A stretch of DNA of 47,830 nt, filler included, from Catajapyx aquilonaris (taxonomy: Eukaryota): NCBI GenBank assembly GCA_000934665.2. It is 2 parts of 2 records of this genome, joined end to end, with 100 filler letters (N's around TTAATTAATTAA, not from the genome) between each part and the next. Parts side by side here need not be neighbours in the genome. Positions count along the whole stretch, not along the records: positions 1 to 23,842 come from JYFJ02005611.1; 1 more part is not named here. One strand, 5' to 3'. How positions within the stretch are numbered: position 1 is the first letter of the stretch; the number at the start of each line of letters is the position of its first letter. The translations under genes and the position numbers were made by a program. This document shows, one piece after another, positions 6,182-35,690 of the stretch. The notes below the pieces were generated by a model. That model searched no databases. It saw only the letters and a program-made list of their open reading frames with translations, and was not told the origin of the DNA.

Positions 6182-6688
6182 ATGCCGTCGGTTTCAGTGA
6201 AGGATGTGGACCAGCACAAGTTTGTACGAGCTTTTGGAGCTTTCCTTAAGAAGTAAGTGATATGTCGACTGTATCCCATGTTGGACAGGGCTGAACTGCC
6301 TTTTTGCCCTTCAAGGACAGGCAAGATGAAGGTGCCCGAGTGGGTGGACCTTGTCAAAACATCAAAGGGCAAGGAGCTGGCCCCTTACGACGAGGATTGG
6401 TTCTACACTCGGTGTGCTGCCTTGGCTCGTCATATGTACCTCCGCTTCCCAGTGGGGACCGCAGCTGCCACCAAGATATTTGGGTCCCGTAAACGCAATG
6501 GTGTCCGCCCTTCCCATCACGTTCGAGGTTCCCCATCAGTCGCACGGAAGGCACTGCAGGCCTTGGAGGGATTGAAGCTGGTCGAGAAGTCTCCTACTGG
6601 CGGACGCAGGCTCACCACGCAAGGGAGACGTGATCTGGACCGCATTGCGGCACAGATTAAGAACAAGAAAGCATTGGCCAAGGAATGA
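6182..6688 (+). CDS. RPS19: 40S ribosomal protein S19 (eS19); exons 6182-6252, 6316-6688; 147 aa
   Basis: Spliced product [39 protein letters not shown]...[16 protein letters not shown]...[16 protein letters not shown] is unmistakable eS19. Phase-2 GT-AG intron; AATAAA at 6705-6710. Confidence 0.98.
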
Positions 6689-8831: not shown

Positions 8832-8967
8832 TTAGTTCCCATAGAAGGGTAGCCAGTGGTGTCCAGGTATTACCTGACCACCTCGTTAAGACCGACATAA
8901 TGACACCAACTAATAATAATAATGTGTGTGTACAACTTTGATTGTTTTTGCAGTGAGGGGCTGAGCC

Positions 8968-11900
8968 ATGGCGTATGTGAATGTTGAGGAGTGGGAGTGT
9001 GAGCAGGTTGGGGAGTGGGTGAGGGGTCTGGGCGATGGGTGCTTGACGACTGCGGAGGTGCTGGAGAAGGCGGGGGTTGGAGGGCGGCGGTTGCTGCAAC
9101 TCAGTGCGGGTTGCCTTGAAGAGATGGGGATATGGAAGGTGGGGCATCAGGAGCTGCTTCTGGAGGCGCTGGAGCAACTGCGGTTGTTTCAGCATGAGCT
9201 GCATAGGGAGAACTTGCAGCTCCTGGCGTTGAGGGTCACCTGCAGGGCGAGGTCGCTTCTCTCAGCTCTCAGGCCACTCATCAATGCTGCTGCCGCTGCG
9301 GCTGATGGGAAGGAGGCGTCTGATGGGCTTCCAACACATGTTTTAGGTGACATTGCGTATCTGCTGGATGCTGCAAAGGACCTCCTGTCGTGGCTCCACA
9401 GGTGAATAATTTTCATGTTCATCTAGCTCACACAAAGATGGACTAGTAATGAGAGGGATGCTTTCAATCAATGCTATCAACATGTTGCGGATACAAATTA
9501 GGCCTGCTGTCTTCCTGTGTTTGCCCTGTCCTTGGGGGGACTGCAGATAACACTGTTAGTTTTTGAACTTATTAATTTTATAATTTCATGGAGTGACACT
9601 TGACTTTTTCTTAAGTCGGATTTTTAGGGCCAGTTGTATCAGGCCGCATGCATTCAAAATCTCACATGTAACAGATAGCTGTTTGTAACCATTTTCAAAC
9701 AGTGAACAATATCGGTTCAAGCTGCAATTCGTAATATATCTGACCTTGTGCAACCAGCCTTTTAAGTGTTTTTAAATATTGTGCAGCCAGCCTTTCAGCA
9801 GGAAAGGTCATGAGGGTGAGTACTTAACTGAAAGCCAGTGTGGTGCTTTGTTTTTACCATGTCACTCCTTCATTTCAGGCCCCCATTTGAGTCATCTGAA
9901 GCGTACCGTGAGCTGGAGCGTGAGCTGATGTCCCAGTGTATGTCTCTGGCTGTCCAGTCTCGTCGTGAACGCTTTGTTGAGAACCCCCTTCAGTCAGTTT
10001 ACCTCTGTGGCGAGAGGCTGGAACTGGCAGCGCGAACTCTGGTGGAGGACTGGACAGACCCCCTGGTGTTGCAACCAGCCTCGCTTGATGTGGCGACACT
10101 TAGGCGACGGCGCACAGCAGAGGACCTGGGCCTGTTGTTCCTAGATCATGGGCGGCCTGGGATACACCTGGTGGCAGCAGCACAACTTCAGAGTCCCGCA
10201 CACCTCAGTGGGAAACTCCACCGAGGGGACGAGGTGGTACAGGTCAACTACCAGACAGTGGTCGGCTGGGATGCACTAAGGGTGGGACAGTTGCTGGAAG
10301 GGAGCAGTTCAGAAGCTATTTTAACACTGAAGAGGAGACCTAGGCATGCATCAGTTTTTGGACAGATGTATATGCGGCCCTTCCGATTGCCCTCAAAGCA
10401 GCAGCAGCAGCAGCAGAGGGCATTTGTATTCTGGGCACCACCACCACCGTTGCACTTACAGCAACCCAGCATTACTATCAGGGCACCACCGCCTCCTCCA
10501 CCTCCACCGACCCCCCCACCACCATTAGCCACGTCAGAGTCTTCTGAAGACGAAGAAGAGGAGGAAGAAGAGGTGGTGGTTGCAGAAGTAGTGTCACCGC
10601 CTCTGTCAACAAGGTTTTACTTGCCAAAGCCACGGCCACCAGTTCAACGTAGGGCAACGGTGACTGGGGCATCACCCACATCAACCCGCCCACCATTGGA
10701 TTTCGATTGCTTTTGGGCTGAGATTGAGAAGCGTCGATCAAAGAGACGTAGTGGAGGGGATGAAGAAGATACTCAGATCAGAAGACCATCACCTGTGACT
10801 CCTCCTCCTCCCAGACCAGCCACATGCATTGGGACTCGCACCGACTACCCAGACACCCCATCACCACCATCCACACCGTCAACTCCTCTGACCCCCGTGT
10901 CGATAACTTCATCAAGTTCACGCAAAACATCAATGGAGAGGCCAAGACTGGACAAAAGCCAGAGCACTCCAGCATATGACATGGAGCAGTTGGAGCAAGG
11001 ACGGCAGCTGGCCAGGCCAGAGCCCAGAACCCAGCAGAAGTGTAGTGTCGGCGATGATGACGACAAGCCTCTGGAAGGTTGGCTTTATAAGTGTGAGAAG
11101 TCCAGTGCCACTCGGTGGTCCAAACGTTGGTTTGTACTCCGTCGCCACCTGCTGCACTGTTACGTAAGTCCTGAATTGGCTAGCTCAGGACAAGGAGAGA
11201 GTGTTTTGCATGTAGCTGGCTTGAAAGCCACTAATGCTCCTGAAGTACGTTCACGCCCACATGCATTCAAACTATTCCACTCAGGAGCTTCGTTTTATTT
11301 CGCTGCTGACTCCAAGGAGGAGCACCAGGTGTGGATAGAGAGATTAAGCCACGCAGCTGCCCTCAGTGCCAGGAGGCATCAGGATGTGCCAAAACCTCCC
11401 AAGTCCGAGGACAAAGGAGTAGTAACAGGAAGCAGTGGTGGTGATGGAAGACCAGGGGACGATGCGCAGAACATTCGTAAAGCATCGTCGTCACCCAGCC
11501 TGCAGCAGCCTCCACCAAAGAAGTCTGGCATACGGAAGGGACGCACTCAGTGAGTTCGTCATATATTAGCTATAGTTAATTATTTGCTCCTCTATTACAC
11601 TGCAACGGTTGAATAGCAAAAAATTATTTCAATAGTAAAGTACTTATATCTTGATTTAACTTGCTTCTTGCTTTTTGGCAGTGATGAAAAAGGTCGCCAC
11701 TCAGGATCATCCGCATCGTCATCATCATCATCCTCAGTGACCTCCGCCCCTTCCCTGTGTGCCAGCCTGGACCGCAAGTACCTCCAGCTGCTGTCCCTGG
11801 CTAGAGTGAGTCCAGAGCGGCCTGTGCCCACTGCCAAGTACCGCAGTTACCGCCGAGTGACTGCCACGTCTCCGCCCCCTCCACCATTCCCACCGCCTCC

Positions 11901-12471
11901 CCCACCCGCTGCACCACCCGTGCTTTCCCCTGCATGTCCGCCATCTCCTGATGCTTACCAAGACCGGTCCCCAGAGCAACGTTGGCTCAGCTCCCTCCGC
12001 TCCACGCTAGGCCTAAAAAGCACTGCATTGTATCATCCAGTCAGAAGGTCCCAATCTAACACTTCGACATCACCTATGCACATGGCATTTGAAATGAACC
12101 TGGATGACGCTCCTTTGACACCTCCTCCGCCTCCGCCTCCTGCAAAACCCACCGCATTTAAGCAGCTCAAGCAGCTGCTCTCCCCTCGTCCCCACCGACG
12201 TCCTCCCCCACCGGAGAGTGTCTTTGTGCTCCCCCCTGCCCTGCCCCCTGCCCCGATCCCAGCACCCACCATGGGGGTGGCAATGATTGGGAAGCAGCGA
12301 CGCACCCCTCCACCCTCAGCCCCACCTGTACCCGACTACCCTCACCTAAAATATCCCCCAATATTTGAACCTGGAACCTACTCACTTCGGGCTTCTACAT
12401 CGTCTTCCGGCTCAACCTCCATGGCTTCTGTCAAGCGGGTGCCTTCAGACCTGCAGCCACGGAAGGTGTAA
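8968..12471 (+). CDS. cnk: Connector enhancer of KSR (CNK/CNKSR) scaffold; exons 8968-9401, 9879-11549, 11682-12471; 964 aa
   Basis: SAM (WECEQVGEWVRGL...VGHQELLLEALEQL), CRIC (LLSWLHRPPF), PDZ ([26 protein letters not shown]), PH (LEGWLYK...WSKRWFVL...AFKL...FYFAADSKEE...W), and proline-rich tracts. Both introns are phase 2 GT-AG; AATAAA at 12568. Confidence 0.93.
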
Positions 12472-12968
12472 CCTGCCACCTGCATACTCGGATTAATACG
12501 TTATTGTTTTGCACCGACTAACACTAGTTGCTCAAGTTTATGCTTACTCGACAATGGTCACATTTGCAATAAACCATGTTGTACTTTACATGTGGTTGTT
12601 GTTGATTGTTGTTACAATATCCAGTTACATGTCGCAATTCACAAGATTTTCTTGGAATTTGAAATGCCGCAGCATGCCCTTGGCAATAGAAAAGGATCTC
12701 AGGAATCGTTGGGTGCTAGTACACCTGCCGCTTTTATTAAAAGGACTACACTGCTTCACAGATGGTTTACGAGAGGAGATGCAAAGAGGAGCAGGAGAAT
12801 TAAGCCAGTGTCAGTCTGAGCAGCAATTGAACCTGACATGTGAGGACTGGAGGGTAGCAAGGGAGGGAAGAGGAGCAGGAGCGGGGAGGAAGGAAGGCAC
12901 GTGGATTTTGCTCTGCCAGAGTCCGTGACGTACTGCAAATAATGTCGTATAGGAGGTCCAGGCCTGGG

Positions 12969-15846
12969 TCAGACGGAGGTCTCGAAAGTGACCTCTCTTC
13001 CGCCTCCCGGATGGCTCATGGCAGCGGTGGCAGTAGGGTTGACGTGCCCTTCCATCCTGGGGGGGCCGCCCATGGGCAGTTGGCCCCGCATGGACGGAGG
13101 CAGCAGGCGAGGGCTCCTGAACGCGGTGGAGGCCAAGCTGCGAGCTGGGGATGACCCAGCTAGAAGAAACATAAGCATGATCACATCCGTGTCTTATCAA
13201 TTTTTAAAAACTGCATTTGTACATAACCTCCACATTTAAATAAGGTCAGGCTTGTCAGACTGTATCATCTCATCTGCAGGTAACATCCACCAGAGCACAA
13301 AGTGCCCCCCTGTTAGTGCACCCTTCCCCTTTGATAGGCTTCCATTGAATGGGCACAATAAATAACTGAATTTCCCAGAAGAGTGACAATCAGATTGGGA
13401 CGTCCCTTTTGTGCTCCAGCGTTTGTTACCCTCTGTAAAGGCATTCGCTCTGCAAATAGCTTTTCCTAATCAGACCCGCTATCTGGATACGTGGGTGTTG
13501 TCTATCTCCGACGAGCAAAATCAATAGCCGTCCCATCATTCGCTATGAACACACTTTCGAGAACTAATAATGCACAAGCCGTGCTTGCATGCTAATTGAT
13601 TTTTCAGTGGCAATGGCACTGTTTGCATGTCGCTGACAACAAACGTTACGCCAACACTGCGGTTGTGATTTTTCTGGCGCCTTGCCAGCAGGCACGTGTG
13701 GAAGTTGGTGTGACATTTAGTCCAGCTTGCGTTTCCGTAGTGACAGTGTCGTAATACCTCTACAGTGCGGCTATTGATGTGCATGTCAGATAAACGTGAG
13801 CAGTTATAAGCACCTCTATGGAGAACAAATTGAGCCAACCAGTCGGAGGGCTATGTGCAATAAATATTCTAAATTAGTTACATGTAGGATGTGACTAACT
13901 GTTTGAGTATATAGAGGAGGCCCTTCGGTCTGACAGCTGAGGGTGATGGAGGCGCCAGCAGTGCGACCGGACATGTCCCTTGGTTCCAGTGTTCACGGCA
14001 TCAACTGAGAGGGAGCGGTTCATTCCCTGTCTCCATGGGTCGTGGGGGCCGCCCCGAGTCCCATCCTGGCTGCTGGTGCTGGCCCCTCCGCCTGAGGACG
14101 ATGAGGGACCCAGGTGCTCATTCAAGGAGTACAGCTTGTGCGTGATGTCCTTTCCCACCAGGTTGTACATCACAGCCTCCAGGTGAGGGCGGTCCTCCAG
14201 CACAGTTCGGAGCTTGCGCCGGGGCCAGCACAGGTATGTGCTTGGCTCCTCTGCCGTCACCGTCACCTGCGTACCAGACATGTTACTATGCAATTCCTTA
14301 GAAGTTGATTACAAATCAAAGGTCATACCTGGAAGACCTCATCCGAGTCATCAGCGCAGGCCTCCCACTCTGGCGAATCCACAAACTGGTTGGCCTGGAT
14401 GTAATGCAAATGGGTTTGTTCGCAGCTGACACGCAACCTGTAACGACAACCATGTGTGTAGCAATCTGTGGTGAAAGCACCACCACCGTCGTCATGAACG
14501 ATTCAGTGATATATGTTGTACTAACAAGTAAGATGTGACACATTGCAAAGAGCACAGTTTGAACCCCATGTATCATTCACGTTCACTGTCGCCATATACG
14601 ACAACTCAATTCCTCATCATAGCAGGTCGCGTGTGACACTTGCTCAATGACTGCATATTAACTCATCAAAAAGGATAACGTTAAGAAATTATATCCCTCT
14701 TAATGGCTCTTGCAAAAGGAGAGACATGATCATGTTGACACTTGCGTGCAGATAAGATACACCTGACTGATTAGTTACATCCTACTACAATGTCAAAGAT
14801 GGTATGTCAAAAAAGAAAGATAATTTACTCACTTTCCTTTTAACAATATGGAAAGTCTTGGCCCCACAGGAGTGACCTCCTCCACCGCATACGTCTCCCC
14901 TGGTTCCAATGTCAACATTTGGGCGTCTCTCGTCATGTCACGAAAATGTTGCTTGTTCACTTTGAGCGGCTGAAATACCTGTTTGAAACCAAAGAAAAAA
15001 CACTTCATATCAAGTGCTGCACTCCGCTATTATTGTTCAGTGGTGCATTATAGTAATGAATTGCCCTCCACTTTCAAAATACAACGCTCATGGTAAATAT
15101 AGCAGGACATGTTACCTTTTGTCAACGATAGTGAACAGTTTGGCAAAATAATCAACAAATTGCTCGCCTATTTACCACGTAGTAGTATTATTAACGGATA
15201 GATGGCGCATACGCCCTCTGCCCACTCCTGCCACCTGTGCCAGAGAGTGCGATACTATCAGGTCGGACAAACATCCAACGAGTATGTCCCTTACCTTGAG
15301 GTACAGATCGACGAGTTCTGGTCGCAAGCAGGTGGGCACGAGTCGGTAAGCGATGATGAGGGCGTGTGCGAGGTTGGCGGCGCAGAAGGCTGCGTTCCAG
15401 GCGAGGGCGTCCGGGGCGCACATGGAGAGGGCTGCCCACAGCATGGCCAGGAGGAAGCCCACGGTGAGGGTCAGACGCATGATGAGGACACTCTGGCGGA
15501 AGTTGTGAGGGATCAGGAAGGCCGCCGCTAAGAAAAGGTTGGCCGCCTGGAACAATGTGTGCTGGGCGCCCTCCCACTCGGTGCAGAACTGGAGCCTGGT
15601 GAAGACACCAGTGCGGTTGCCCCCGAGGGAACCGTTGCCCATCAGGGCCGCGTCCATACCATCGTCCAGCCCTCCTGGACCCCACAGTCCCACGCCCCAT
15701 GCCAGACCCCATCTGTTCTCTATCCATGGAAAGCTCAGGTTGACCCCTGCTGCTTCGGGCCATGACTCCGGAAGGTCGTCCTCCGTGGTGGTGCTGGCGG
15801 GTTCCTCCCAACTAGAGGAGTTGGTGGAGTCTGTCGGGATCCTCAT
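12969..15846 (-). CDS. BVES: Popeye domain-containing protein, POPDC1/BVES-like; exons 15846-15295, 14978-14833, 14437-14329, 14266-13900, 13159-12969; 454 aa
   Basis: Three TM segments followed by a Popeye domain with RLSILLKGK, FVDSPEW, FQVT and GKDITHKLYSLN. All four junctions are GT-AG and phase-compatible (0, 2, 0, 1). The last exon is the least certain. Confidence 0.9.
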
Positions 15847-18800
15847 GGCAATCGGAGGAGGGTATAAAAGAGGGGTCGGGGCTGCCCAACCACCGCTATC
15901 AGAAATGCAATACCAAGAGACCCAGGAGCTTCGAGGATGGGTCTCTCTTCAGGTTCGGAAGCAGCATAATCACAGGACCAGCCACTGCCGATGGGGGGAT
16001 TTACAAAAGCTACGATTCCAGACCAGGATCACACCTGTCAACAAAGAAGTTGGCATTACTATTGTTGCCCCCAAGACATTGCCCCCTGTAAATCAGGCAA
16101 TATGTACGGCAACAGAGGCTCATAGGTTACCTGGCTTCCAGGATGAAACAATCCAACCGAGGATTATTAACATAGTGATTAAAAAATCTAGCTGGAAAGT
16201 GTCCTACATATAGGACAGTGGGTCGACCAGCTACTCATTTTTGCGTGCAATAATTTTGCAATTTTGTTATTTTTTTCGGGCATTGCAAACGCTTTACATC
16301 ATTTTCAATGTACAAAAAACCGGGCGGAGGAAAACTTGACAGAAAGGGCCGGTTGTATGGTGTACGTGTAACGATAAAAGCGTCGCAAATTTATAGCCTT
16401 TTTAGTCTGAAAAAAGTAATGTCGTATATATGGGAACAGATAAGATCAATGGAGCTGAAGAAAAGTCGGCAGTCTACAGCGTACCATAATGGAAAGTAGA
16501 TCTAGGTTAATGTTCCTTTCATGATGAGTTGTCTACTGATGTCCCCCCAAGATGTATCGGTTGATGGTGACGTTACAGGCGCCAGCGATTGTTAATATGT
16601 TTATAGTTCGTCCAATCGCATGTTGAGGAGAAAATTGGATCCCCCACTTTAACCCCCCCCCCCCCCCCACGCTAACTTATAATGCAATTTGATTGTCGGA
16701 CGAACAAGCAGCCATTTCGCATATCGAATTTTGTCCCCACGCAATGACACTTAGTGACGTGTCATTTCATGGGAGAAGGCTCTACCGAATTGCTAAGTAT
16801 GGCTCTTACAGTATGAACACTTGTTGCTTGAGGAATGTAAGCTACCACCAATGAAATTAACCACATTAATTGGTTTTAAAAAATTATTCATATTGATGAA
16901 TTTATTTATACGTTTTTCCAAAGATGTCGCACTGTCAGTGTCAATTGGCATAAAAATGCTATTTTTGACACATATTGGGTCTAATTTTTCATTCCACTGT
17001 GTAATACTTCAAATTCGTTGCATACACACTGATAAATATTGCATCTTACGAAGCAATCTCGTGCATATGTAAAACAGAAGTTTGTTTGCATGTATGACCT
17101 AACCCACTTCGGAGTACTGAGAGTCTTGAAACTGACGTCTTACATGCCGCTGATTCCGGGAAAAGTCCGAAAATCGCACTTTTTTGAGTCTAAATGCCCA
17201 AAATTTATGATTCTTAAATGATGTTTGGTTAACTTCGGCAACTGTAGCACATTTGTTAATTTTTGACCAAATTGACCTCGGAATTGACCAGTTGAAGATC
17301 ACTCTACAGTTTGTGTGAACTGGGGGGGTCAATACCTCACAGACCATAATACCAACAGGGTACATGTGTCCCAAATGCGTCATTCGGGAGGTCAATAACT
17401 CCCTCTTCAAAACCCCCACAAGAATGCCAACACAATCTATACGCATTGTTCCCACCTCCGACCTCATTTCCCCCCTACACTAGATCAGATAGCACCTTCC
17501 ACACGTACTATTTCCATTTCCACCTATAACCCACCCCCTTCTTCTCCACCACCCAACCACCCCTCCCTTAAAATTGTTCCCAAGCACGCAAAGGGCACTG
17601 CATAAAGGAACATACAAAACCCCTATGGGCGATAATAGCCGACGTTGACTGGATGGATTATGGGGGCACGCCCAGGGGGGTGTTTTAGCCACGCATTTCA
17701 TATATGCCATTATGTCATCCAGATGCGTGAGGTCATGCACATTTCTGAAGGAAAAAAAATGATCGTGACCTCTCCCAATATGTGCCTGATTATTATTAGA
17801 TCTTTGTGACAATGTGGCCCACGAGGTCTTGCGGATGGCGCGTCGGTGTTGGATGGACGCCAAACAGGCCAGTTTTTGCCAGAATCTTGCCGCAGTCCAA
17901 GGGCAGGATTTTTTTTTCTTCTTCTTTGCAAACGAATACGGCGAGTCTCATGTCTGAACATGCTGAAGTAACGGTTAAAATATGACGGTTAGTTACCTGT
18001 TTTCAGGTGACGCCACCGTCCATCAGGGTGCGTATCGGGGTCGCAGAGCTGGGTGTGTGCCCAGCCGACTACTATGGCACACTAGATGGAACTTGCTGAT
18101 GGAGGCCCCCATCACCCCCCATCCACCGACGACGCCGCCGACGCCTCTGCATGCGCCACCCCTTCCCACCGACGCCGTTGCCCGGCGACGCCCTCGACGC
18201 CAGATTATCGACCATATGCCGCTTACGCCCTCTTTTTTTTTTTTTTTGGCAAGATCAGTTTTAGGGGTATTGATAGGTAAGGATAATAAATCATGAAGAG
18301 GTGAACGGCCAAGTACTGGTTTTAGGCCGGTGACACTTTGTCTATATTATTTTGGGATGGTAATAGAGTCCTGCTCGTACAGTACCTGCGATATGAAATG
18401 ATAACTACCCAATAGCATCGATTGACTTGCCATGCCCGGCCTATCTGTCATGAATCATGAAATTGGAGGATTTGTCGGGTTTACTTGCACGATATGAATA
18501 ATAAGAAGCCGCAATTTGCCAATCACGATTGTTTGTCCTTCTGAGCGGGTATTATGTATTCATGAAAATTAGGGATGTGTGGGATGTGTAGGGTACCTGG
18601 CAGAAACACACATCTGTCAGCGATAAAACTACTATGTGTGCGAAAATGCTCCAGAATTAAGGACGTCATGATTGCTCAACAAATTGCGCCACATGCCTTA
18701 TAGTGTGTGAATCAAATTAGGAAAAAAATTATCTAGCATTTACAATATGAAGATTTCTCATGTTTACACTTCTGCAGTAACTGCATAGAACCGTCTACAG

Positions 18801-19080
18801 TACAGTACAATATATCCTTCCATTTAAAAAATGCCATAAGTTGATTGAAAAAATATTTATGTCAAAGCAATGTTACTGCTGAAGATGAAATAATTTGATT
18901 TGCACTACTGCAGTCGGCTGCAGTACATTGCGTCAAACGTTCTGCATTTCAAGTCATCATTACTTCGTATAAGGTCAGTACAAGGAAGAGCGAATGGAAC
19001 AACTAGAGATGAAGGAGACAAGACATTGTTATGAAACAATATGCTGTATTTCCATCACATAATAATAATCTATACACAGT

Positions 19081-21736
19081 CTATAAGAGCTGATCAGAGT
19101 CTCTCTGATAACGAGGCAAGAGGACATTGGTTTGAGCTTTTCTATCCGCTTCGTCGTTGGGGCAAGACTCGGCGTCCTCCATGTCGCAGGAATGGTAATT
19201 GGATGACCCCGTGCCCTGGTCACACTCTGAGGCGTCGAGGTCGTCGCAAGATGGCATCTCCGGAAGTGGCTCCATCTGCTGGAGCAGCAAAGGCGCCATC
19301 TCCGGACTGACGCATCCTCCAAAGGACAGTAGCCTCCCGTTGGCCAAAGAGCTGCTTCGACTGCTTCCACCCCCTAAGGTTGTCGAGTACCTCTGTCAAT
19401 CTGTACACTCAACACTGATGCTGATGGTGCTGTGTATGTGCACCCGTGCATATATACATTCTGTGTATTATGTGCCCAGCAAGTGAAAGATGCCATTGTG
19501 AAAACAGTGTATGTACAGTACAAAGGGGGGGCGACACACGTGTGTACACTGACACGACACGGTGAACGTCACATCGACAGCGGAAAGAAGAGGTGGAAGT
19601 GCGACATATAGGAGGAAGTTACGGTGGTCATCACACGGACGAGGCGTCATGATCTGTAATATTATGACGCACACAGCTGGATTAGGTGGGTTCAACATTA
19701 AAGCACCAGTGGCAATGGCGTACGCTGGTGTACACATCAGGATCTACCAGTGTTTGGAACTGCGTACGCCTATGCCATATAAGAGGAGGAAGAGGATGCG
19801 TCACTAACTATACAGTATAGCCATGCACTGCCGTACACATTTACTTATTAATATGACAGATTGAGTGTTGACGGCAGCAACCATGCATGTCCAAGCAAGC
19901 CAGCAACTTGAGTCATACGTGCCGTTTGTGCTGTAGTAGGCCTATTTCCAGGAGACAAACATATAAGATACATTTCCAGTCTGCCTGTACCTGACTCTGG
20001 AGAGTAGCTCCTTCTCCTGCCCCCCACGTTGTTTCCGGAGATGGACACCCTGGCACTTCGAAGAGGACTCTTGCTGGTCGTAGTACCGTCGCTGCTCTCG
20101 TACAATGTCAGAGTGGACGTCAGGGAAGGCAAACGGATGTCCAGATGGGAGCCCTTTTCCGTCACAATCTGACAATGTTGAAGGACATGTTTGACACAGT
20201 ATTTGTGTACGTAATACGTTGGCAAAAAGGGAGGACTTTTTGCTACATATAGTAAAAGTAAAATGACAGGGTGCCGTACCCTCAAAATGTCATCGTAAAT
20301 ATCTGAAACGATCCCTTCGCTCCGGACTAATACCATGTAATTTGTGTTCGGACATACACGCGAGCAGTATACCTTTTTGTTCATGGCATACAACTTGGTG
20401 GTGATGTCCCTGGCAATGAGTGTGGCCATAACCGTGGCCAAGTATGGCTCCTTCACGAAAATATACTCCAAGGCGGACCTTTGCCAAAACAGGTACAGAC
20501 AAGGTGTGGCAGCAATGATGGACACCTTGAACTTGTCCTCCATGGCAGCCCTGCTGGATTCGAACTCAGGAGAGTCCAGGAACTGCTTTGGGATAATATG
20601 GTGGAGGAAGTGGCTGTCTGACATCACGTTGATCTTTCCCGAAACCAAAAGTCCCAGTCTGTCTGTCCTGGTCAGCTTCTGCATTGCGTAGGCCTCTCCT
20701 GCGTGCAGGCTTAACAGTTGGGCGTATTCGGAGCTGACAAGTCTCTTAAACAGCAGGCGTGACACCTAATGCAAACATTAGCTAATTAATTGCACTGTAT
20801 GTACACTGCACCTGTTATAAATTAAAGCATAGTGGCCTCGAAATGTCTGGAGGGCGAATCTAGCCAAACACGCAGCACATAATGTATGTCAAAGTGTGAA
20901 CCAGGCTGACCACCCTATATACATTTTGAGGTCACAATCTACAAGAAATAGAGGTCCACCCACGCTAAGAGGCTGAAATAGACAGTGGTAGATGGGCTCC
21001 AACTCTGGCTCGAACTTGACCGGTCTCATCTGGTAGATAATATACAGCATCTGTCCCATGTTGAGTATCATAAAGGCAAAGTTCCAGGAGAAGACATCAG
21101 GAGCGCAAATGATGTTCCATGCCCATGTTGAGAAAAGCAGGAAGCCAAGTATCAACACGCAATGCATGAAGAGCAATCCTCGTCTGCTGTTTGGAGCCAG
21201 GTATGATGCGAAGAAACAACCATTGGCCATCTGGAACAGGATGTGCTGGGATGGCCTCCATGTAGCACATGCCACCAGTGCACCTATCAACAAATAAGTA
21301 ACCACTAGACAATTACAAATCCCACCAAAAACCTTTCTGTAAAAAAAGGCCAAGTTCTCCTGACTGCTTGGCCGTAAAAAGTGGTGAGATCTGATAGAGA
21401 TATGCGAGATATGCGAGATGAGATCTGCGAGATATTTTCCTCCATAGCTGGGTTTATTCTACATTATTGTAATGTCATCCAGGTAGTGCAGGATACGCCC
21501 ACAATAATTTACGTTCCAAGCCAAGCTAACCACTAACGACCTTCCAATTATTTTTAAAACCCACCTTGAAACGTGGTGTTCCATGTTGTTAGCGGATTGG
21601 GATCGTCGACCGGGAAGGAAACGATGTCTCCTCCACCGATGTCCAGGTAACTGGCATTGGTCTCCGTGGGCCATAGAGGAGGAAGAGATGATGATGAGAA
21701 GAAGAGGTCGTCCCAGTCGCTCGACTCCGACGACAT
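19081..21736 (-). CDS. Popeye domain-containing protein, POPDC2/3-like; exons 21736-21565, 21283-20964, 20765-20373, 20168-19991, 19373-19081; 451 aa
   Basis: WAWNIICAPDVFSWNF, YAMQKLTRTDRLGLLVSGKI, FLDSPEF, FKVS, DITTKLYAMN, LDIRLPSL. GT-AG junctions are phase-compatible (1, 0, 0, 1). Confidence 0.88.
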
Positions 21737-22449
21737 CCTAGCGATTTCTGCGCGTTTTTTTGCACGCTGCACCCAGCAAAGTTTATACTGGCCTATCGAT
21801 CCTCACCTGAGCGCCTGCGTTTGTGGGAATAGGGCCAAAAGTGCCGCGGCCTTCGTACACTGTACAGCAGTCCGGCTTGCCAATCCCAGACGAAAAACTT
21901 GGCTACCAACGATTAATTGCGCAAAACAGTGTTGCCTCCATTTTTTTTTTAAAAAAAAATCTTCTAATCCGCCATCGGATGTTTGTCCTGATAGTACCAC
22001 TATGGCCCGCACGACATGAAAGTGGCAGGAGTGTGTCGGGGAATGGTGCGCCATCTATGCGCGAAGAATATTACTACGTGGTAAATCAGCCTCCAGATCG
22101 GCGCTATTATGCCGGACAAACATCCGATGGAGATAAATAAAGTATTAGAAGATAAATATTGCAAATTTTGGCAACGGGTTCACTAGTTCTTAAAGAAATG
22201 ACGCAGCCAGTGGACCATATTCGCAATAGTTTTATCCTTCTGGCATAGCCGAATTTCTTTCACACCAGATGTGGCATATTGCCCAGAAATGTCACAGAAT
22301 TGCACTTCGTGTGCAAACCGTAGTTGTGTAAGAACCGTCATTGTCTTTACAGTATCTGCAGTCAGATGGCAATAAAAACTTTTTTTATATCAGATTTTAT
22401 TATTTTTAATCGCAGTTTCACCAATATGACAACTGTTCCTTTCCAGAAT

Positions 22450-23107
22450 TCATGACCCAGAAACGTCAGAGTCGCCAGAAATCTCATAGTAGACTTCATC
22501 AAGGCTATTGCGGCTAGATGGTGGGGAGTCGTACAGTTCAATCCAACGTTCGAGGACGTCGGTGTTTCCCAGCTCTATTTCCTCCATTCCAGTGGTGGTA
22601 ATCACCCGGCCAGTTTCGCGAACCACGACAATAACAGTCGGGATGTTGGTCACGCCAAAGTGTTCACGAAGATCCCTGCGTCGTACATAAAATATATGGG
22701 GCATACAGTGTGTGACTTGGGCAATTACTCATTAGTACTTACAGGGCAAGAGATTCAGCTTCCCATGGAAGAGACAACCAGTCACTAGGGTGACTCTGGT
22801 AGAATTCCATCCTGTCCTCGGGAGTCTCATCGCTGCTGATGAAAATCACTTCCAGGGTAATCTCACTCTCCTTAGCCTCCTGTTATCACCAATTTAAAAA
22901 AATCCAAAATGTAATTAAATGTAATTAAGATTAAGGTACGTGACTCGCCTGGTAAATGTTGGATAGAGACGCAGCGAAAGTTTTGCAAGGTGGACACCAT
23001 CCGGCGCCAAAGTAAAAAGCCACCAAGGTAGTGTCTTCCAAGGCTTCTTTTGCAGGCACCATCTCGCCGCTTTTTGTCTCCAACAGCGCATCTTCCAGAA
23101 AGTCCAT
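22450..23107 (-). CDS. Nucleoredoxin-like/tryparedoxin-type single-domain thioredoxin; exons 23107-22949, 22879-22743, 22675-22450; 173 aa
   Basis: VAFYFGAGWCPPCKTF, LEVIFISSD, WLSLPW, FGVTNIPTVIVV..G.VIT..G. Intron 1 most likely uses a GC donor (CAG|GCGAGT); intron 2 is GT-AG. Confidence 0.9.
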
Positions 23108-23404
23108 ATCTGAGGCTATCTGCGTTCGTCTCACTTGTAAACCCCCTCAAAATTCAAAGGTCCAGGTCGTTGCCTGGCATCATTTGTTTGGACATGCTGT
23201 ATTGTTGGTTTAAGTGTTCCTACAATTTGGAGTAGCCCTAAACAATGCATAAGCAAGAGGCGCAAACATTCGATTTTTGCGTCTCTCTGTTTTGGGCGTT
23301 GCCAAGGCTGGCGGCCATTTTGAAGTGTGTGGAACGCCAACGAGGTATAAATAGGGTACAGGCACATCATGATGAGGCTCACTACATGCTGACAAAAATA
23401 CCCC

Positions 23405-23842: not shown

Positions 23843-23942
23843 NNNNNNNNNNNNNNNNNNNNNNNNNNNNNNNNNNNNNNNNNNNNTTAATTAATTAANN
23901 NNNNNNNNNNNNNNNNNNNNNNNNNNNNNNNNNNNNNNNNNN
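23843..23942. other. Assembly gap (100 nt) containing an artificial TTAATTAATTAA spacer at 23887-23898
   Basis: N runs of 44 nt on each side of a palindromic 12-mer with stops in all six frames. Confidence 0.95.
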
Positions 23943-29216: not shown

Positions 29217-30770
29217 TGTAACATCGACATGCAGATGATTTTCGTGCTAGGCGAACTTCATTGGTGTTGGGCAAGTACGATAACCTCTCACGTGAGCGTG
29301 TCATCAACTATACTATGAGTGGGTGTTACTCGTGCCCAAATCGTGGTAGGTGAAGGCCTCTGACATGTTTTGCTCGAGAACCTTAGTGTATGCTTCCTGC
29401 AATCCTCCATCTGTGACGGAACTTCTGGTTCGGTCCGGACTCTCCCGAGTGGGCGGACGGCAGGAGTCGCTCTTCTTGGTTGCTCAGTAATTTTCCCCAA
29501 GATATTAAGATTTTGACTTACATGATGCTGGTTTATTGTCGCTGACTCCACTCTTACAATCCTCCTCTCCTTCTCTCACTCACCCCCAACTTCACCCTCC
29601 ACTCTCACTCACCCAACAATCACTCCTCTCAAACCATAGCAACTTTCTTTACAATCAACCACCATTGCTGCCAACATATTTAGTACATCACATTCGTCCC
29701 CCCTTTAAAATAAGAGAGGTGTTCCTTTAACACGGAACACCTCGCCTTATCAAAGACAAGTCCCTATCGCATCCTCATCATCAACTAATCATCTCTTAAC
29801 ATCGTCTCTCAACCTCCTCATCATCCATTATTGAACTAGCTGCCTTCTGCATGGTAGGCGCGTTCTCTTTTTTATGCTCTCATCTTTCTTATTCCTCTAC
29901 TATCAAGTCGAACAAGAAACCTTCTGAAGGATAGGTCTGTTCTCTGTTCTGATTTCCCCAACATTTAACTCCAATACTCAAATCACAATAACTCAATAAC
30001 AACAACTTCTTCCGACGTCTTCTTCTTGGCCATCAGTTGTACATCATCTGTTCATGGTCCCGCATCTTCTCGTCAGTGGTGGAACCACTCAATGGTAATG
30101 TCGTCTGCTTCCTTCCTTCATGTTCTCGTCAGTGGTGGAACCACTCAATGGTAATGTCGTCTGCTTCCTTCCTTCATCTTCTTGTCAGTGGTGGAACCAC
30201 TCAATGGTAATGTCGTCTGCTTCCTTCCTTCATCTTCTCGTCAGTGGTGGACCCGCTTTGGTGTTGGCATCACCCAGGGTGTGTCTGGCACCTGGCACTG
30301 ACTCCTTAATGGGTATCTGCTATTTGTTTCATGACTGGTGTCCGGCTCAGGACTGATGTCCGGCTGTCTCTCATCCTGCTGAATCCCGCCGTAGAGCCAT
30401 GTCCAAGGGAAGTCAGGTACCGATTGGGGGGTCGTCTTATGTCCTTTAGTAGTCGGGATGTCCTCTTCTCCCATCAGTGTCGTCTCTTCTTCGCAATGGG
30501 CCTCGACAGATAAACCCTTGATCCCAGGAAATGGTTCCCTTGGGTGGAAAAGCCGCAGTCTGTCGATGTGTACCAGTTGGGTTTTTGAGTGGTGGACGTC
30601 TTGAATGACGAAGTTAACCTCACTCGTTTGTGCCTTGACACGGAATGGCCCCATCCAAGGAGATCTTAATTTTGGGCTAAGTCCTGACGGGCATTGGGGG
30701 TTGTGGAGTAGCACTAGATCTCCTTCCCCAATTTGTCTGTCTATTGCCTTCTTATCATGGTATAGTGTAG
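29217..30770 (-). mobile_element. 3' remnant of a Ty3/gypsy LTR retrotransposon (integrase C-terminus, PPT, 3' LTR 29692-29217)
   Basis: GDLVLLHNP...PKLRSPWMGPFRV...VHIDRLR (GPY/F module). Polypurine tract AAAGGGGGGACGAA directly before TGTGATG; LTR ends in ...GTTACA and contains AATAAA. Confidence 0.8.
30063..30251. repeat. ~56-bp tandem repeat (3.3 copies) inside the gypsy remnant
   Basis: CATCTTCTCGTCAGTGGTGGAACCACTCAATGGTAATGTCGTCTGCTTCCTTCCTT repeated. Confidence 0.9.
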
Positions 30771-30806
30771 AGCATAAGTTATGTGTACTGTCAAAAAAGA
30801 ACTGAA

Positions 30807-31580
30807 ATTAGATCAAAAACCTTCTCTTCAGTAAAAAAAAGAGAAGTACGACCTCCGCGGCGGAATAAAAGTACTGAAACAAGGCAGGCGCACGTAAGAC
30901 CTTCACCAATTGATTTAAGCTGTACCATAGGTCTTACTCAAGCAATTCTCAAGTACGGTATGGAACGCCTCGTAAAATGACTGCTGCAAACTACTCAGAG
31001 CAGTAGGTAGGATTTTATTATGAAAAGAAAAAAAATGGGGGAAAAACTAAACCCATCCTAACAGACTTGGTCCAATCGAAAAAGACCCTCTAAAATTCAC
31101 CAATTAACGTTTATATGTGAAAAATTAAACGTTATAGATAAAATCAGCATCTAAAAGATGTGCCGATTCTGCATGAATGTTTCATGGCAATAATTCACAC
31201 TAATCGCAAAGAAAATTCAATGTGCTTAATATTGAAGTTCCTAATTTCATAAAACACTAATATGAAGTGGCTCATGGAAAATTAATGGGTGGAATTTTTG
31301 TCGTACTACTATTACTATTAACTATAGGTCTGTAGTTACTGCCTACTTAGCAGTACCATTGCACTACACTGGTACTGCTAAGTTAGAAGTAACTAGTAGT
31401 ACGACAGAAATTCCACAAATTTGTTTTCAGAAAGGAGATTTCATGATGAGTAAGACCTATGGTACAGCTTAAATCAATTGGTGAAGGTCTTACGTGCGCC
31501 TGCCTTGTTTCAGTACTTTTATTCCGCCCCGGATGTCTTACTTCTCTTGTTTTTACTGAAGGGAAGGTTTTTGATCTAAT
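30807..31580. mobile_element. Unclassified non-autonomous element with ~135-bp inverted repeats
   Basis: 30807-30940 is the reverse complement of 31447-31580; no clear TSD. Confidence 0.7.
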
Positions 31581-34009: not shown

Positions 34010-35690
34010 ATAAACAGTTCATACCAGTTACGAGAAGGATATTGACAGGAGGGCCTTGCTGCCTTGGCATAGTTATGTGCAGCTTGCAACAATGAATTTT
34101 CTTTCCTGCCTCCAGCTTACGATAATATTTTATCGCTTGTCTAATTAGAGTCAAAGAAAGTTGTGTAGTGCCAGTTTCAAGCCTGACAAAGAACCTCTGC
34201 CTGTTTGGGAAGTCCTGAGAATTTTTTCAAATAATAGTTTTGTACCCTTTCTCGCTCGTCAATATACTGAAGCCCCCATATGGGAAACCCATACTGGACT
34301 ATTGGTATTACGTGACTTGAAAAAAGTTTCTAAGCCACATTCATATCCCTGACCCGCAATTTCATTAGAGTTGGCCCTTGTCCGTAATGCATTTACGGCC
34401 GCTATTGCCTTACACTTGGTTAGCTCGGCCATTGTATTACATTTACCAGAGGAAGAAACATCACCCCCAGGTCATTCCCCAGGTATTTATAAGATGCTTG
34501 TATTTCTACCGGATTTTTATTAATGAAAAATTTTAAGTCCTGCGAAAGTCGTCCGGCTTTCCTAAAGACCACTGCCTTTGTCTTCGCGATATTCAGTTCC
34601 AGTTCTTTTTCTGATAAATAGGTGACCACTAGGTCAAGCATTCTTTGCAAATATAGAGGTTGTCTGGCCATCAAAGCAATACTATCCGCATACGCAAGCA
34701 TATGTATGTCATTCTCATTCGGCCCAAAATTCACCCCGGGAATTCCGGAGACCTCCAGGCTCCTGGTTAAGTCAGCCACGTAAATACTGTATTAAAAAGT
34801 ATGGGTGATAATACTTCACCTTGCAGCACTCCCCTTCCCACTGACAATCCATTTTCAAAAGCCCCTGCATGTGCCACAATGCGGAAGTTTTGGTATATGT
34901 TACCCAATAAGGTAACCATTTTTGAGCTAATACCAATTTCTGAAAGAGTTTTCCATAAAATATCATGGCTGACCAAATCAAACGCCTTGGAAAGGTCCAG
35001 AAATATCGCATACAGCTTACCCTTAGGTGGATTGACATATTTCTGTATTAATGAATTCAAGGTGTAGATGTGGTCCATACAACCTCTTTTTGGTCTGAAA
35101 GCAGCTTGTGTATCGGAGAAGATCTGACAGCTATCACACCACCTGAGTAACCGTTTCGCCAAAATTGAAGTGAATAATTTCAGTATAGTATTGTTCACCA
35201 GTGAAATGGGCCTGTAGTTTGCAGGGTTACCTCGATCTTCATTTTTAAATATAGGAACCATAGTTGATTGGGGCCCATATACTAGGAATTTCCGCTCTAC
35301 GTAAACAGCGATTGAACAGATCCAGTAAAGGCATTACCACTTCCGGCGTATTCAACTTCACGTAGGCATTTGTGATAAGATCTGGCCCTGCCGATGTGTG
35401 GGACTTCAAGTTAGCTACGGCTTGCTGCAGCTCAGTCAGTGTGATAGTATTGTCTGACAATGACACAGTTCTGAAAGGCCGGTCCAGAATTCTTCGATTG
35501 GCTTTATATCCACCATACATTGAACACAGCCAGGTAGTTCCACCAAACCTCCTGATCTAATTTAACTGGCTTTTTGGTGCTCCTGTGCGCGTTGACAGTG
35601 CCCAGAATACTTTTGATGATGACTATTTAAGAAGAGCCTGCACTGTGACCGCGAAATATTTTCTTTTCATGGCGAGCTTTTGATTCCTAT

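What the first reader, a model, noticed from the sequence alone, without database searches (positions are those of the whole stretch)
12969..21736. Tandem POPDC2/3-like then POPDC1-like genes: the vertebrate POPDC3-BVES arrangement in an invertebrate
Seen: two highly diverged Popeye genes on the same strand with different intron positions. The downstream one has POPDC1-type signatures (RLSILLKGK, GKDITHKLYSLN). The upstream one has POPDC2/3-type signatures (WAW..CA.D.FSWNF, YAMQ..T..D.L.LLVSG.I, DIRLPSL). Known: human POPDC3 lies immediately upstream of BVES on the same strand at 6q21, the tandem is described for chordates, Drosophila has a single bves gene, and POPDC1 forms heteromers with POPDC2/3. 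Inference: the split and the linkage predate the protostome-deuterostome divergence, and the heteromeric cAMP-effector pair is ancestral rather than chordate-specific.
Basis: partly seen in the sequence, partly recalled or inferred. Interest (0 to 1): 0.75.

Follow-up and report, generated by a model that had tools for sequence, protein, structure and literature searches.

The report
Ancient tandem pair of Popeye genes
Two neighbouring arthropod genes for cAMP-binding Popeye membrane proteins match the two vertebrate types, POPDC3-like upstream and BVES/POPDC1-like downstream, so the two types look older than the chordate origin given in reviews.

Summary
Two Popeye-domain genes (Pfam PF04831) lie head to tail on the minus strand. 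Gene A has its CDS at 21736-19848, or to 19081 with a conserved alternative last exon. Gene B has its CDS at 15846-12969 and a 5'UTR exon at about 18247-17997. Contigs of run X5 skip five segments with GT..AG ends at the predicted junctions; DNA run X1 does not.

Gene A is 76-79% identical to arthropod "POPDC3-like" proteins. Gene B belongs to an arthropod-wide "BVES-like" group (45-57% identity in the membrane region).

In a 61-row maximum-likelihood tree, A groups with lophotrochozoan, ambulacrarian and vertebrate POPDC2/3 proteins (98/92; 98/96 in a trimmed set). B lies on the other side with mollusc/annelid BVES-like, hemichordate, amphioxus and vertebrate POPDC1 proteins. AU tests reject:
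- an arthropod-only duplication (p 5.5e-11)
- a protostome-only duplication (p 0.0006)
- a chordate-only duplication (p 0.0012)

Shared characters agree: a DIRLP motif (A-type), an intron before the Val217 codon, and a C-terminal FETSV-like end (B-type).

The ancient split is therefore supported, against review-level statements. Ancestral linkage is plausible but shown in only one protostome genome. Heteromer formation was not tested. The genes themselves are ordinary family members.

The parts
21565..21736 (-). Gene A (POPDC2/3-type) coding exon 1: ATG, extracellular N-terminus with two N-x-S/T sequons; donor CAAG|GTGGGT, phase 1
   Evidence: Model; sequons. The junction to exon 2 is inferred from splice signals and from the alignment with arthropod proteins. 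No X5 contig bridges it.
20964..21283 (-). Gene A exon 2: three membrane helices (CATW...FQPLS)
   Evidence: Pfam PF04831 1.2e-36. tblastn 64-80% identity to arthropod POPDC3-like proteins. The 3' junction is supported by X5 joint 20762/20961, cut +3.
20373..20765 (-). Gene A exon 3: the whole Popeye (cAMP-binding-like) domain, with DSPE, FKVS and the alphaC helix
   Evidence: 76-79% identity to arthropod POPDC3-like proteins. X5 contig covers 20373-20762, and its 11-letter loose end reads the start of exon 4.
19848..20168 (-). Gene A exon 4: IVTEKGSHLDIRLPSL motif and tail. The stop is at 19848 if read through; a possible donor lies at 19991.
   Evidence: An X5 contig is colinear with the genome over 19043-20019.
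19081..19373 (-). Gene A probable alternative last coding exon (..LANGRLL..EMAPL..MPSCDDLD..YHSCD..)
   Evidence: Matches the C-terminus of the Blattella A-type protein, E 4e-5, and resembles Schistocerca, Lasius and Tenebrio C-termini. The splice is inferred only.
18248..19080 (.). Spacer of about 0.8 kb between the end of gene A and the first exon seen for gene B
   Evidence: The limits are approximate.
17997..18247 (-). Gene B (POPDC1-type) 5' untranslated exon; donor AAAACAG|GTAACT
   Evidence: X5 joint 16032/17995, cut +2, CT..AC. Splice context. The 5' limit is approximate (loose end at 18247).
15295..16034 (-). Gene B exon with ATG at 15846: N-terminus with four N-x-S/T sequons and three membrane helices
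   Evidence: Pfam PF04831 4.4e-24. Exhaustive phmmer: 350 hits at E<=0.001, best at 45-57% identity. X5 joints on both sides.
14833..14978 (-). Gene B coding exon 2 (VFQPLKV...RLSILLKG-K), phase 2 donor
   Evidence: X5 joints 14975/15292 and 14435/14831; model.
14329..14437 (-). Gene B coding exon 3 (LRVSCEQ..FVDSPEWE..EVFQ); ends just before the Val that aligns with human POPDC1 Val217
   Evidence: PMC6501641 gives human BVES exon 6 as Val217-Lys272.
13900..14266 (-). Gene B coding exon 4 (VTVTAEE..GKDITHKLYSLN.. and tail with RSLSVDAV motif)
   Evidence: X5 contig covers 13900-14265 and joins to 13159.
12710..13159 (-). Gene B last exon: the CDS ends at 12969 with ...FETSV-stop; 3'UTR with AATAAA near 12735
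   Evidence: X5 joint 13159/13900, CT..AC, and contig down to 12710..

Best explanation
The region holds two expressed paralogous Popeye-domain genes of a pancrustacean-like arthropod, arranged head to tail on the minus strand. Each encodes a short glycosylated N-terminus, three membrane helices and a cytoplasmic Popeye domain that keeps the DSPE and F-Q/K-V motifs used for cAMP binding, plus the hydrophobic alphaC helix used for dimer contacts in vertebrates. Gene A belongs to the POPDC2/3-type lineage. Gene B belongs to the POPDC1 (BVES)-type set. The two types separated before protostomes and deuterostomes diverged, not at the base of chordates. Shown here: the gene models and spliced contigs, family membership, an arthropod-wide orthologue set for each gene, and the tree with its AU tests. 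Inferred: (i) the order in the window, POPDC3-type upstream of POPDC1-type on one strand, is the retained product of the original tandem duplication, as in chordates; (ii) both proteins bind cAMP and may pair with each other.
For: Family membership: Pfam PF04831 for both genes.

Expression and gene models: five GT..AG-ended skips in X5 contigs and none in DNA run X1.

Gene A relatives: 193 relatives at E<=0.001; the 120 listed are all arthropod or unnamed, 48-79% identical (top hits 76-79%), mostly named POPDC3-like.

Gene B relatives: of 10 top hits looked up, 9 carry a name and all 9 are arthropod. Seven are named BVES-like, from locust, cricket, mayfly, crayfish, shrimp, ant and sea spider. 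The other two are a planthopper and a centipede protein.

Careful IQ-TREE (61 rows x 299 columns, LG+C20+F+G4; supports are ultrafast bootstrap / SH-aLRT):
- arthropod A + lophotrochozoan A 100/99
- these with vertebrate POPDC2/3 (100/100) and ambulacrarian POPDC2/3-like (100/100): 98/92
- arthropod B 99/99, with lophotrochozoan B 93/91
- central split 93/83

Trimmed set (48 rows x 231 core columns): the A/POPDC2-3 clan gets 98/96.

AU tests:
- arthropod A+B as one clade: dlnL 91.7, p 5.5e-11
- protostome A+B as one clade: dlnL 35.2, p 0.0006
- chordate POPDC1+2+3 as one clade: dlnL 27.7, p 0.0012

Shared characters:
- G..DIRLP after the alphaC helix in A, Tachypleus, Asterias, Saccoglossus POPDC2-like and Xenopus Popdc3, with variants DLRHP in Owenia and DIRLA in Neogobius Popdc2. 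It is absent from every B/POPDC1 row shown.
- An Arg at the start of helix 2 in every B/POPDC1 row shown.
- B's intron between Q269 and V270 (phase 0) sits where human BVES exon 6 begins, at Val217 (PMC6501641).
- Ends in [ED][ST][ST][VL]: B ends FETSV. Of 315 stored proteins, 7 have such an end, all B/POPDC1-side: Mya ESTV, Ornithodoros ETSL and five Branchiostoma ETTV.

Both types occur in single species: Schistocerca gregaria, Nymphon striatum, Ornithodoros turicata and Saccoglossus kowalevskii.
Against: - The tree has no outgroup, so whether the B/POPDC1 side is a clade or a grade is open. Inside that side the branches are weak (74/23, 61/80).
- Vertebrate POPDC2/3 is sampled thinly: one full Xenopus Popdc3, three partial Popdc2 and one unnamed row. 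It sits on a long branch (1.08).
- Pairwise identities do not separate the types. winA is 34-36% identical to POPDC1 rows and 29-36% to POPDC2/3 rows; winB is 34-36% and 29-34%.
- A third arthropod clade (ArC) and an unnamed environmental clade join the A side, so the history has more than one duplication.
- Linkage: in Ornithodoros turicata the two types are recorded on contigs of 59.5 and 108.6 Mb, and in Nymphon striatum on different scaffolds. Adjacency is therefore not general in arthropods.
- Rows for the final trees were picked by hand from an exploratory tree. The protostome grouping was named after the tree was seen.
- X5 is not on record as RNA.
Confidence: 0.7

Rival explanations
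1. Lineage-specific duplication: the two genes arose by tandem duplication within arthropods (or within this lineage), and their likeness to POPDC1 and POPDC3 is convergent or superficial.
For: They are adjacent, as young duplicates are. Reviews state that arthropod Popdc genes form an independent subgroup (PMC4080823) and evolved independently (PMC5872366). Pairwise identities to vertebrate POPDC1 and POPDC2/3 barely differ.
Against: The two genes are only 35% identical. Each has its own orthologues in insects, crustaceans, a myriapod and chelicerates. Holding arthropod A and B rows together costs 91.7 lnL units, AU p 5.5e-11.
Confidence: 0.02
2. Parallel duplications: protostomes and deuterostomes (or chordates) each duplicated a single ancestral Popeye gene. 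The A-with-POPDC2/3 grouping would then be a tree artefact of unequal rates, and the tandem in the window would be unrelated to the chordate tandem.
For: This is the scenario of the reviews (PMC5872366, PMC8706714: first duplication in early chordates). A-type proteins evolve slowly and B-type and POPDC2/3 proteins fast, which can mislead trees. The central split gets only 93/83 in the full set. There is no outgroup.
Against: AU tests reject protostome monophyly (p 0.0006) and chordate monophyly (p 0.0012) under a site-heterogeneous model. The split rises to 98/96 after long rows and terminal motifs are removed. Characters outside the trimmed columns agree: DIRLP motif, C-terminal FETSV-like end, intron before Val217. 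Saccoglossus has one gene on each side.
Confidence: 0.13
3. The split is ancient but the adjacency is secondary: the two types are old paralogues, and their neighbourhood in this genome is a later rearrangement, not retained ancestral linkage.
For: The two types are not on the same contig in a tick or a sea spider. Only one protostome locus, this window, was seen directly.
Against: [quoted passage not shown] Re-creating order and orientation by chance is unlikely. In Schistocerca gregaria both lie on the same 510.9-Mb contig, which is weak support.
Confidence: 0.15

Closest known systems
Vertebrate and lower-chordate POPDC3-POPDC1 (BVES) tandem locus (human 6q21)
   Same: Two Popeye genes on one strand with the POPDC3-type upstream of the POPDC1-type. 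The reviews describe a tandem organisation kept down to tunicates and cephalochordates, with predicted POPDC3-POPDC1 fusion transcripts (PMC4080823, PMC5872366, PMC8706714; passages read). The downstream gene has more exons than the upstream one. One intron of gene B matches the start of human BVES exon 6 (PMC6501641).
   Different: The host is a protostome. The spacer is about 0.8 kb, against about 20 kb in human (PMC4080823). B shows 6 exons against 8 in BVES. No POPDC2 counterpart is expected. B ends in FETSV, which the vertebrate POPDC1 rows held here lack.
Arthropod 'popeye domain-containing protein 3-like' predicted proteins (e.g. Tachypleus, Blattella, Macrobrachium, Penaeus)
   Same: Gene A is 76-79% identical over the Popeye domain and nests inside this clade (99/97). 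It shares the GSHLDIRLPS motif and the YHSC C-terminal exon.
   Different: No protein of 90% or higher identity appeared, so this species' own record is not among the hits. In the window, the only transcript contig seen runs unspliced through the last intron.
Arthropod 'blood vessel epicardial substance-like' predicted proteins (e.g. Gryllus, Schistocerca, Procambarus, Penaeus, Strigamia, Nymphon)
   Same: Gene B nests in this clade (99/99), with up to 56% identity over 289 columns. It shares RLS(I/V)LL.GK, GKDIT.KLYSLN and the RSLSVDAV tail motif.
   Different: This group evolves much faster than the A type. A word-based search with B's membrane exon found nothing. Many database models seem to lack the last small exon that carries the FETSV end.
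Drosophila bves (single Popeye gene)
   Same: Same family. The reviews give it as the only Popeye gene of dipterans (PMC4918794, PMC5872366).
   Different: This genome keeps two types. I could not determine which type Drosophila retains, because no dipteran sequence was among the named hits.

Membership tests
Popeye domain-containing proteins (POPDC, Pfam PF04831) | Match to the PF04831 profile above its gathering score | tested here: met
   A: 126.4 and 31.6 bits. B: 85.6 bits. The cut-off is 28.1 bits.
Popeye domain-containing proteins (POPDC, Pfam PF04831) | Short N-terminus with N-glycosylation sequons followed by three membrane helices | tested here: met
   Sequons: 2 in A and 4 in B before helix 1. 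The helix region aligns column by column with vertebrate and invertebrate members. No dedicated membrane-helix predictor was run.
Popeye domain-containing proteins (POPDC, Pfam PF04831) | cAMP-contact motifs DSPE and FQVT (human POPDC1 D200, S201, E203, V217; PMC4918794 figure legend) | tested here: met
   A has DSPE at 228 and FKVS at 243. B has DSPE at 253 and FQVT at 268. The spacing is the same as in the POPDC1 rows.
Popeye domain-containing proteins (POPDC, Pfam PF04831) | Binding of cAMP | not testable with these tools
   Needs a binding assay.
POPDC1 (BVES) type | Groups with vertebrate POPDC1 rather than POPDC2/3 in a tree | tested here: inconclusive
   B lies on the POPDC1 side of the central split (93/83; complement of the 98/96 clan). 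Without a root that side may be a grade, and its inner branches are weak.
POPDC1 (BVES) type | Sequence signatures RLSILLKGK and GKDITNKLYSLN | tested here: met
   B has RLSILLKGK and GKDITHKLYSLN. The gecko and other POPDC1 rows have RLSILLKGK and GKDITNKLYSLN. The gecko row is labelled POPDC1 through its nearest atlas cluster.
POPDC1 (BVES) type | Gene structure: intron directly before the Val217 codon (human exon 6 = Val217-Lys272, phase 0) | tested here: met
   B has an intron after codon 269, phase 0 (EVFQ|VTV). The alignment places V270 at the Val of FQV in POPDC1 rows. Human data come from PMC6501641 (passages). A has no intron there. Whether vertebrate POPDC2/3 lack it could not be checked.
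POPDC1 (BVES) type | Eight exons, seven coding (PMC6501641, PMC5872366) | tested here: not met
   B shows six exons, five of them coding. Exon number can change, so this is weak evidence.
POPDC2/3 type | Groups with vertebrate POPDC2/3 in a tree | tested here: met
   The clan of arthropod A, lophotrochozoan A, ambulacrarian POPDC2/3-like and vertebrate POPDC2/3 gets 98/92 and 98/96.
POPDC2/3 type | DIRLP motif after the alphaC helix and WAW..CA.D.FSWNF in helices 2-3 | tested here: met
   DIRLP is present in A, Xenopus Popdc3 (FDIRLPN), Asterias and Saccoglossus POPDC2-like, with DIRLA in Neogobius Popdc2. It is absent from all B/POPDC1 rows shown. Xenopus Popdc3 has WAWMDVCAADVFSWNF.
POPDC2/3 type | Four-exon gene (PMC5872366) | tested here: inconclusive
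   A has four coding exons in the read-through model and five with the alternative last exon. I found no source for human POPDC2/3 exon boundaries.
POPDC3-POPDC1 tandem arrangement | Both genes adjacent, on the same strand, POPDC3-type upstream | tested here: met
   Window: A at 21736-19081, B at 18247-12710, both on the minus strand.
POPDC3-POPDC1 tandem arrangement | Arrangement conserved in other protostomes | tested here: inconclusive
   Only contig sizes could be read. Schistocerca gregaria: both on a 510,884,443-bp contig. Ornithodoros turicata: 59.5 against 108.6 Mb. Nymphon striatum: 158 kb against 1.6 Mb. No tool here reads arthropod genomes.

The most novel reading that the evidence does not exclude
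The POPDC3-type/POPDC1-type tandem is an urbilaterian two-gene unit. It would have been kept adjacent and co-oriented for more than half a billion years because the two products work as an obligate heteromeric cAMP effector, with POPDC1-type pairing with POPDC2/3-type for membrane delivery as in human muscle, and are co-regulated or co-transcribed from one locus. The POPDC1-type partner would originally have been anchored to PDZ scaffolds through a C-terminal FETSV-like ligand that vertebrates later lost.
Probability: 0.25. Interest if true: 0.65.

Novelty: new member of a known kind. Interest (0 to 1): 0.45.

Why it matters
[quoted passage not shown] Their membrane delivery depends on POPDC1-POPDC2 complexes (PMC9830914). 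Reviews up to 2021 place the POPDC1/POPDC3 duplication in early chordates and treat invertebrate duplicates as independent (PMC4080823, PMC5872366, PMC8706714).

If the two types are bilaterian-wide orthology groups, then:
- arthropods, molluscs, annelids and ambulacrarians that keep both genes become simple two-gene models for the heteromer question. Drosophila, with one gene, is the exception and not the rule.
- names and functional inferences can be transferred by type.
- a conserved tandem would point to shared regulation.

The shared C-terminal FETSV-like end of B-type proteins suggests a PDZ-scaffold link that can be tested directly.

Tried and rejected
- No whole genome is held for this window, so other Popeye copies in this genome could not be sought.
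- A word-based search with B's membrane exon found nothing: 293 candidates, none at E<=0.001. The exhaustive search then found the family.
- No Popeye structure is in the PDB by sequence; the best hit was an unrelated Ycf54, E 0.069.
- The look-up of sequencing runs: no RNA holder listed. X5 is of unrecorded kind and is read as transcript-like only because its contigs skip GT..AG segments.
- The metagenome scan with A's domain exon gave 4 loci: 2 kb at 48% identity, two at 34-35% and one 16-residue match. None was useful for synteny, and I did not follow them.
- Earlier-findings look-ups by place, words, sequence and relatives returned nothing on this locus. One note on a bacterial Popeye-like protein was not used.
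- Complex prediction (Schistocerca gregaria A and B Popeye domains, alignments A1 and A2): queue full, then declared not available. Nothing was folded.
- Paper search was badly framed (10,816 papers, none on POPDC).
- Human POPDC2/3 exon boundaries were not found (one search was a mistyped term).
- The splice that would join A exon 4 to the conserved last exon could not be fixed: 63 frame-compatible GT/AG pairs. The pair 19991/19373 looks best but is unsupported by reads.
- Pairwise identity as a test of type was rejected as uninformative.

Full report
WHAT IS THERE

The finding's limits coincide with the coding limits of two genes on the minus strand. Stop-to-stop ORFs and Pfam show Popeye (PF04831) matches in two places:
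- Gene A: 20889-21458 (1.2e-36) and 19848-20765 (2.1e-7).
- Gene B: 15172-15948 (4.4e-24) and 13895-14308 (1.5e-4, below the cut-off).

Using tblastn with arthropod homologues and splice signals, I built these models:
- Gene A: 21736-21565, 21283-20964, 20765-20373, 20168-19848 (401 aa).
- Gene B: 15846-15295, 14978-14833, 14437-14329, 14266-13900, 13159-12969 (454 aa).

All introns are GT..AG.

Two public runs were laid on 12500-22500.
- Contigs of run X5 (kind not on record) skip 13160-13899, 14436-14830, 14976-15291, 16033-17994 and 20763-20960, each with CT..AC ends. DNA run X1 has none of these joints.
- This supports four B junctions, including a 5' untranslated exon ending at 17997, and the A exon 2/3 junction.
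- An 11-letter loose end supports A exon 3/4.
- A exon 1/2 and B exon 3/4 rest on splice signals and homology alone.
- One X5 contig runs colinear with the genome over 19043-20019. Yet 19373-19081 encodes a C-terminus conserved with cockroach, locust, ant and beetle A-type proteins. Gene A therefore probably has an alternatively used last exon. Its splice could not be fixed.
- About 0.8 kb separates the end of A from the first exon seen for B.

WHAT THE TWO GENES ARE

Gene A's domain exon finds 193 relatives at E<=0.001. The 120 listed are arthropod or unnamed, 48-79% identical (top hits 76-79%), and mostly called 'popeye domain-containing protein 3-like'.

Gene B's membrane exon finds nothing by word search. 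An exhaustive phmmer over 1.84 billion representatives gives 350 hits at E<=0.001, and the best are 45-57% identical.
- Ten of the best hits were looked up; nine carry names and all nine are arthropod.
- Seven are called 'blood vessel epicardial substance(-like)': locusts, cricket, mayfly, crayfish, shrimp, ant and sea spider.
- The other two are a planthopper and a centipede protein.

Each window gene therefore has its own arthropod-wide orthologue set. Both types occur together in Schistocerca gregaria, Nymphon striatum and Ornithodoros turicata.

Further look-ups, one atlas call (32) and a length-restricted search seeded with part of the Asterias protein gave labelled rows:
- B/POPDC1 side: molluscs and annelids of the B type (Mya, Bulinus, Littorina, Lamellibrachia), Saccoglossus POPDC1-like, Branchiostoma BVES-like, lamprey POPDC1-like, and a gecko protein whose nearest atlas cluster is 'Popeye domain-containing protein 1'.
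- A/POPDC2-3 side: Owenia, Asterias and Antedon POPDC3-like, Saccoglossus and Glandiceps POPDC2-like, Xenopus Popdc3 and three partial vertebrate Popdc2.
- A third arthropod clade (Penaeus japonicus, Rhipicephalus).

PHYLOGENY

How the rows were chosen:
- I took the 147 new proteins listed plus 15 A-type proteins, 162 in all; three of the 15 were also among the 150 listed.
- Proteins under 230 residues were dropped, leaving 96 proteins plus the two models (98 rows).
- Fourteen rows with under 80% core coverage were then dropped.
- An exploratory FastTree of the remaining 84 rows guided a hand-picked set of 59 proteins plus the two window models.

The careful IQ-TREE search (61 x 299, LG+C20+F+G4 by PMSF; ultrafast bootstrap / SH-aLRT) gives:
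- winA inside arthropod A (99/97), joined to lophotrochozoan A (100/99).
- These with vertebrate POPDC2/3 (100/100) and ambulacrarian POPDC2/3-like (100/100) at 98/92.
- The third arthropod clade plus an unnamed environmental clade joining this side.
- winB inside arthropod B (99/99), joined to lophotrochozoan B (93/91).
- Vertebrate POPDC1 with amphioxus (87/46) and Saccoglossus POPDC1-like on B's side of a central split of 93/83.

AU tests on this data set reject three groupings:
- arthropod A+B as one clade: dlnL 91.7, p 5.5e-11.
- protostome A+B as one clade: dlnL 35.2, p 0.0006.
- chordate POPDC1+2+3 with amphioxus as one clade: dlnL 27.7, p 0.0012. This is the review scenario.

For a robustness check I removed 13 rows: four long B rows, the seven rows of the third and environmental clades, one partial row and one row of odd composition. 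I kept only the 231 columns from helix 1 to the end of the alphaC helix. The A/POPDC2-3 clan then gets 98/96. The inside of the other side stays unresolved (61/80).

Limits of the tree:
- There is no outgroup, so 'POPDC1 type' may be a grade.
- Vertebrate POPDC2/3 is thinly sampled and sits on a long branch.
- Pairwise identities alone do not discriminate the types.

CHARACTERS OUTSIDE THE TREE

- The motif G..DIRLP after the alphaC helix is present in A, Tachypleus, Asterias, Saccoglossus POPDC2-like and Xenopus Popdc3, with variants in Owenia (DLRHP) and Neogobius Popdc2 (DIRLA). It is absent from every B/POPDC1 row shown.
- All B/POPDC1 rows in that display share an Arg at the start of helix 2. 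Invertebrate A rows have His there, and vertebrate POPDC2/3 rows have Tyr or Phe.
- B's intron after codon 269 (EVFQ|VTV, phase 0) lies exactly where human BVES exon 6 starts (Val217-Lys272, 168 bp; PMC6501641, passages read). The DSPE-to-Val spacing is the same in B and in POPDC1 rows. Gene A has no intron there.
- B ends in FETSV. Of the 315 proteins held, 7 end in [ED][ST][ST][VL]: Mya B-type (FESTV), Ornithodoros B-type (ETSL) and five Branchiostoma BVES-like entries (FETTV). No A-side row does. This looks like a class I PDZ ligand; that assignment rests on my recall of the consensus.

FUNCTION

Both proteins keep the features that define the family:
- N-terminal sequons.
- The three-helix membrane region.
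- DSPE and FQVT/FKVS, corresponding to human D200, S201, E203 and V217 (PMC4918794 legend).
- The i/i+4 hydrophobic array of the alphaC helix. Human POPDC1 has L245, F249, I253, I257, L261, L264; A has L, M, I, I, L, M; B has L, M, V, I, L, L. PMC9830914 (passages) links this array to POPDC1-POPDC2 complex formation and surface delivery. The same paper reports POPDC1-POPDC3 binding but no direct POPDC2-POPDC3 complex.

I infer that both are membrane cAMP effectors able to dimerise.

COMPARISON WITH THE LITERATURE

Passages read in the reviews say the following:
- POPDC1 and POPDC3 are tandem-organised in vertebrates, tunicates and cephalochordates.
- Invertebrate genes 'evolved independently'.
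- Many insects have two genes and Drosophila has one.
- POPDC1 has 8 exons and POPDC2/3 have 4 (PMC5872366; similarly PMC8706714, 2021).
- 'Orthology cannot be determined' (PMC4918794).

Searches of the held library found no paper that assigns invertebrate Popeye genes to the two vertebrate types or reports the tandem in a protostome (terms POPDC with invertebrates/phylogenetic, tandem/insects, evolution/duplication/invertebrate). Subscription-only papers (Brand 2005; Andree et al. 2000) were not seen. NCBI's automatic names already split arthropod proteins into 'POPDC3-like' and 'BVES-like'.

LINKAGE

The window shows the POPDC3-type upstream of the POPDC1-type on one strand, as implied for vertebrates by the predicted POPDC3-POPDC1 fusion transcripts (PMC4080823). 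For other protostomes I could only compare recorded contig sizes:
- Schistocerca gregaria: the same 510,884,443-bp contig.
- Ornithodoros turicata: different contigs.
- Nymphon striatum: different scaffolds.

Ancestral linkage is the simplest reading of same order, strand and closeness, but it rests on one locus.

VERDICT

The ancient split is supported at about 0.8. Retained ancestral tandem stands at about 0.5-0.6. An ancestral heteromer is untested. The genes are ordinary members of a known family. The interest lies in moving the POPDC1 versus POPDC2/3 duplication from chordates to at least the bilaterian ancestor, and in offering two-gene invertebrate models.

Noticed in passing
window 8965-12468 (+): A CNK-like scaffold gene (connector enhancer of KSR). 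SAM and CRIC domains lie in 8965-9402, PDZ and PH domains in 9832-11550, and a proline-rich ORF in 11617-12468. It converges on the 3' end of gene B.
   Followed up: partly
window 6257-6685 (+): Uninterrupted ORF with a full ribosomal protein S19e domain (1.4e-46). It could be an intronless gene or a processed copy.
   Followed up: no
window 22453-23153 (-): ORFs with a thioredoxin-like WCPPC motif (nucleoredoxin/tryparedoxin-like by eye), just upstream of gene A. There was no Pfam hit at E<=1e-4.
   Followed up: no
window 30244-30807 and 34423-35333 (-): Retroelement remnants: integrase C-terminal domain (1.1e-8) and reverse transcriptase in two ORFs (9.8e-21 and 6.1e-7).
   Followed up: no
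window 21319-21394 and about 15172-15505: Short high-copy repeats: word depth about 11,250 and 476 in DNA run X1, against about 18-20 elsewhere. The first lies in gene A's intron 1 and breaks contigs in both runs.
   Followed up: no
window 23843-23886 and 23899-23942: Two runs of 44 N each (assembly gaps).
   Followed up: no
proteins P0183, P0213, P0214, P0240 (related loci, not the window): A third, fast-evolving arthropod Popeye clade (Penaeus japonicus 'POPDC3-like X1', Rhipicephalus microplus). It groups at 98/96 with an unnamed clade from environmental and Logan assemblies (P0184, P0231, P0264) on the POPDC2/3 side. Whether this genome has such a copy is unknown.
   Followed up: partly
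window 12969-12983 (-); proteins P0200, P0266, P0148: Gene B ends in FETSV. Mya (FESTV), Branchiostoma (FETTV) and Ornithodoros (ETSL) B/POPDC1-type proteins end alike. This PDZ-ligand-like C-terminus is absent from the vertebrate POPDC1 rows held and from all A-type rows.
   Followed up: partly
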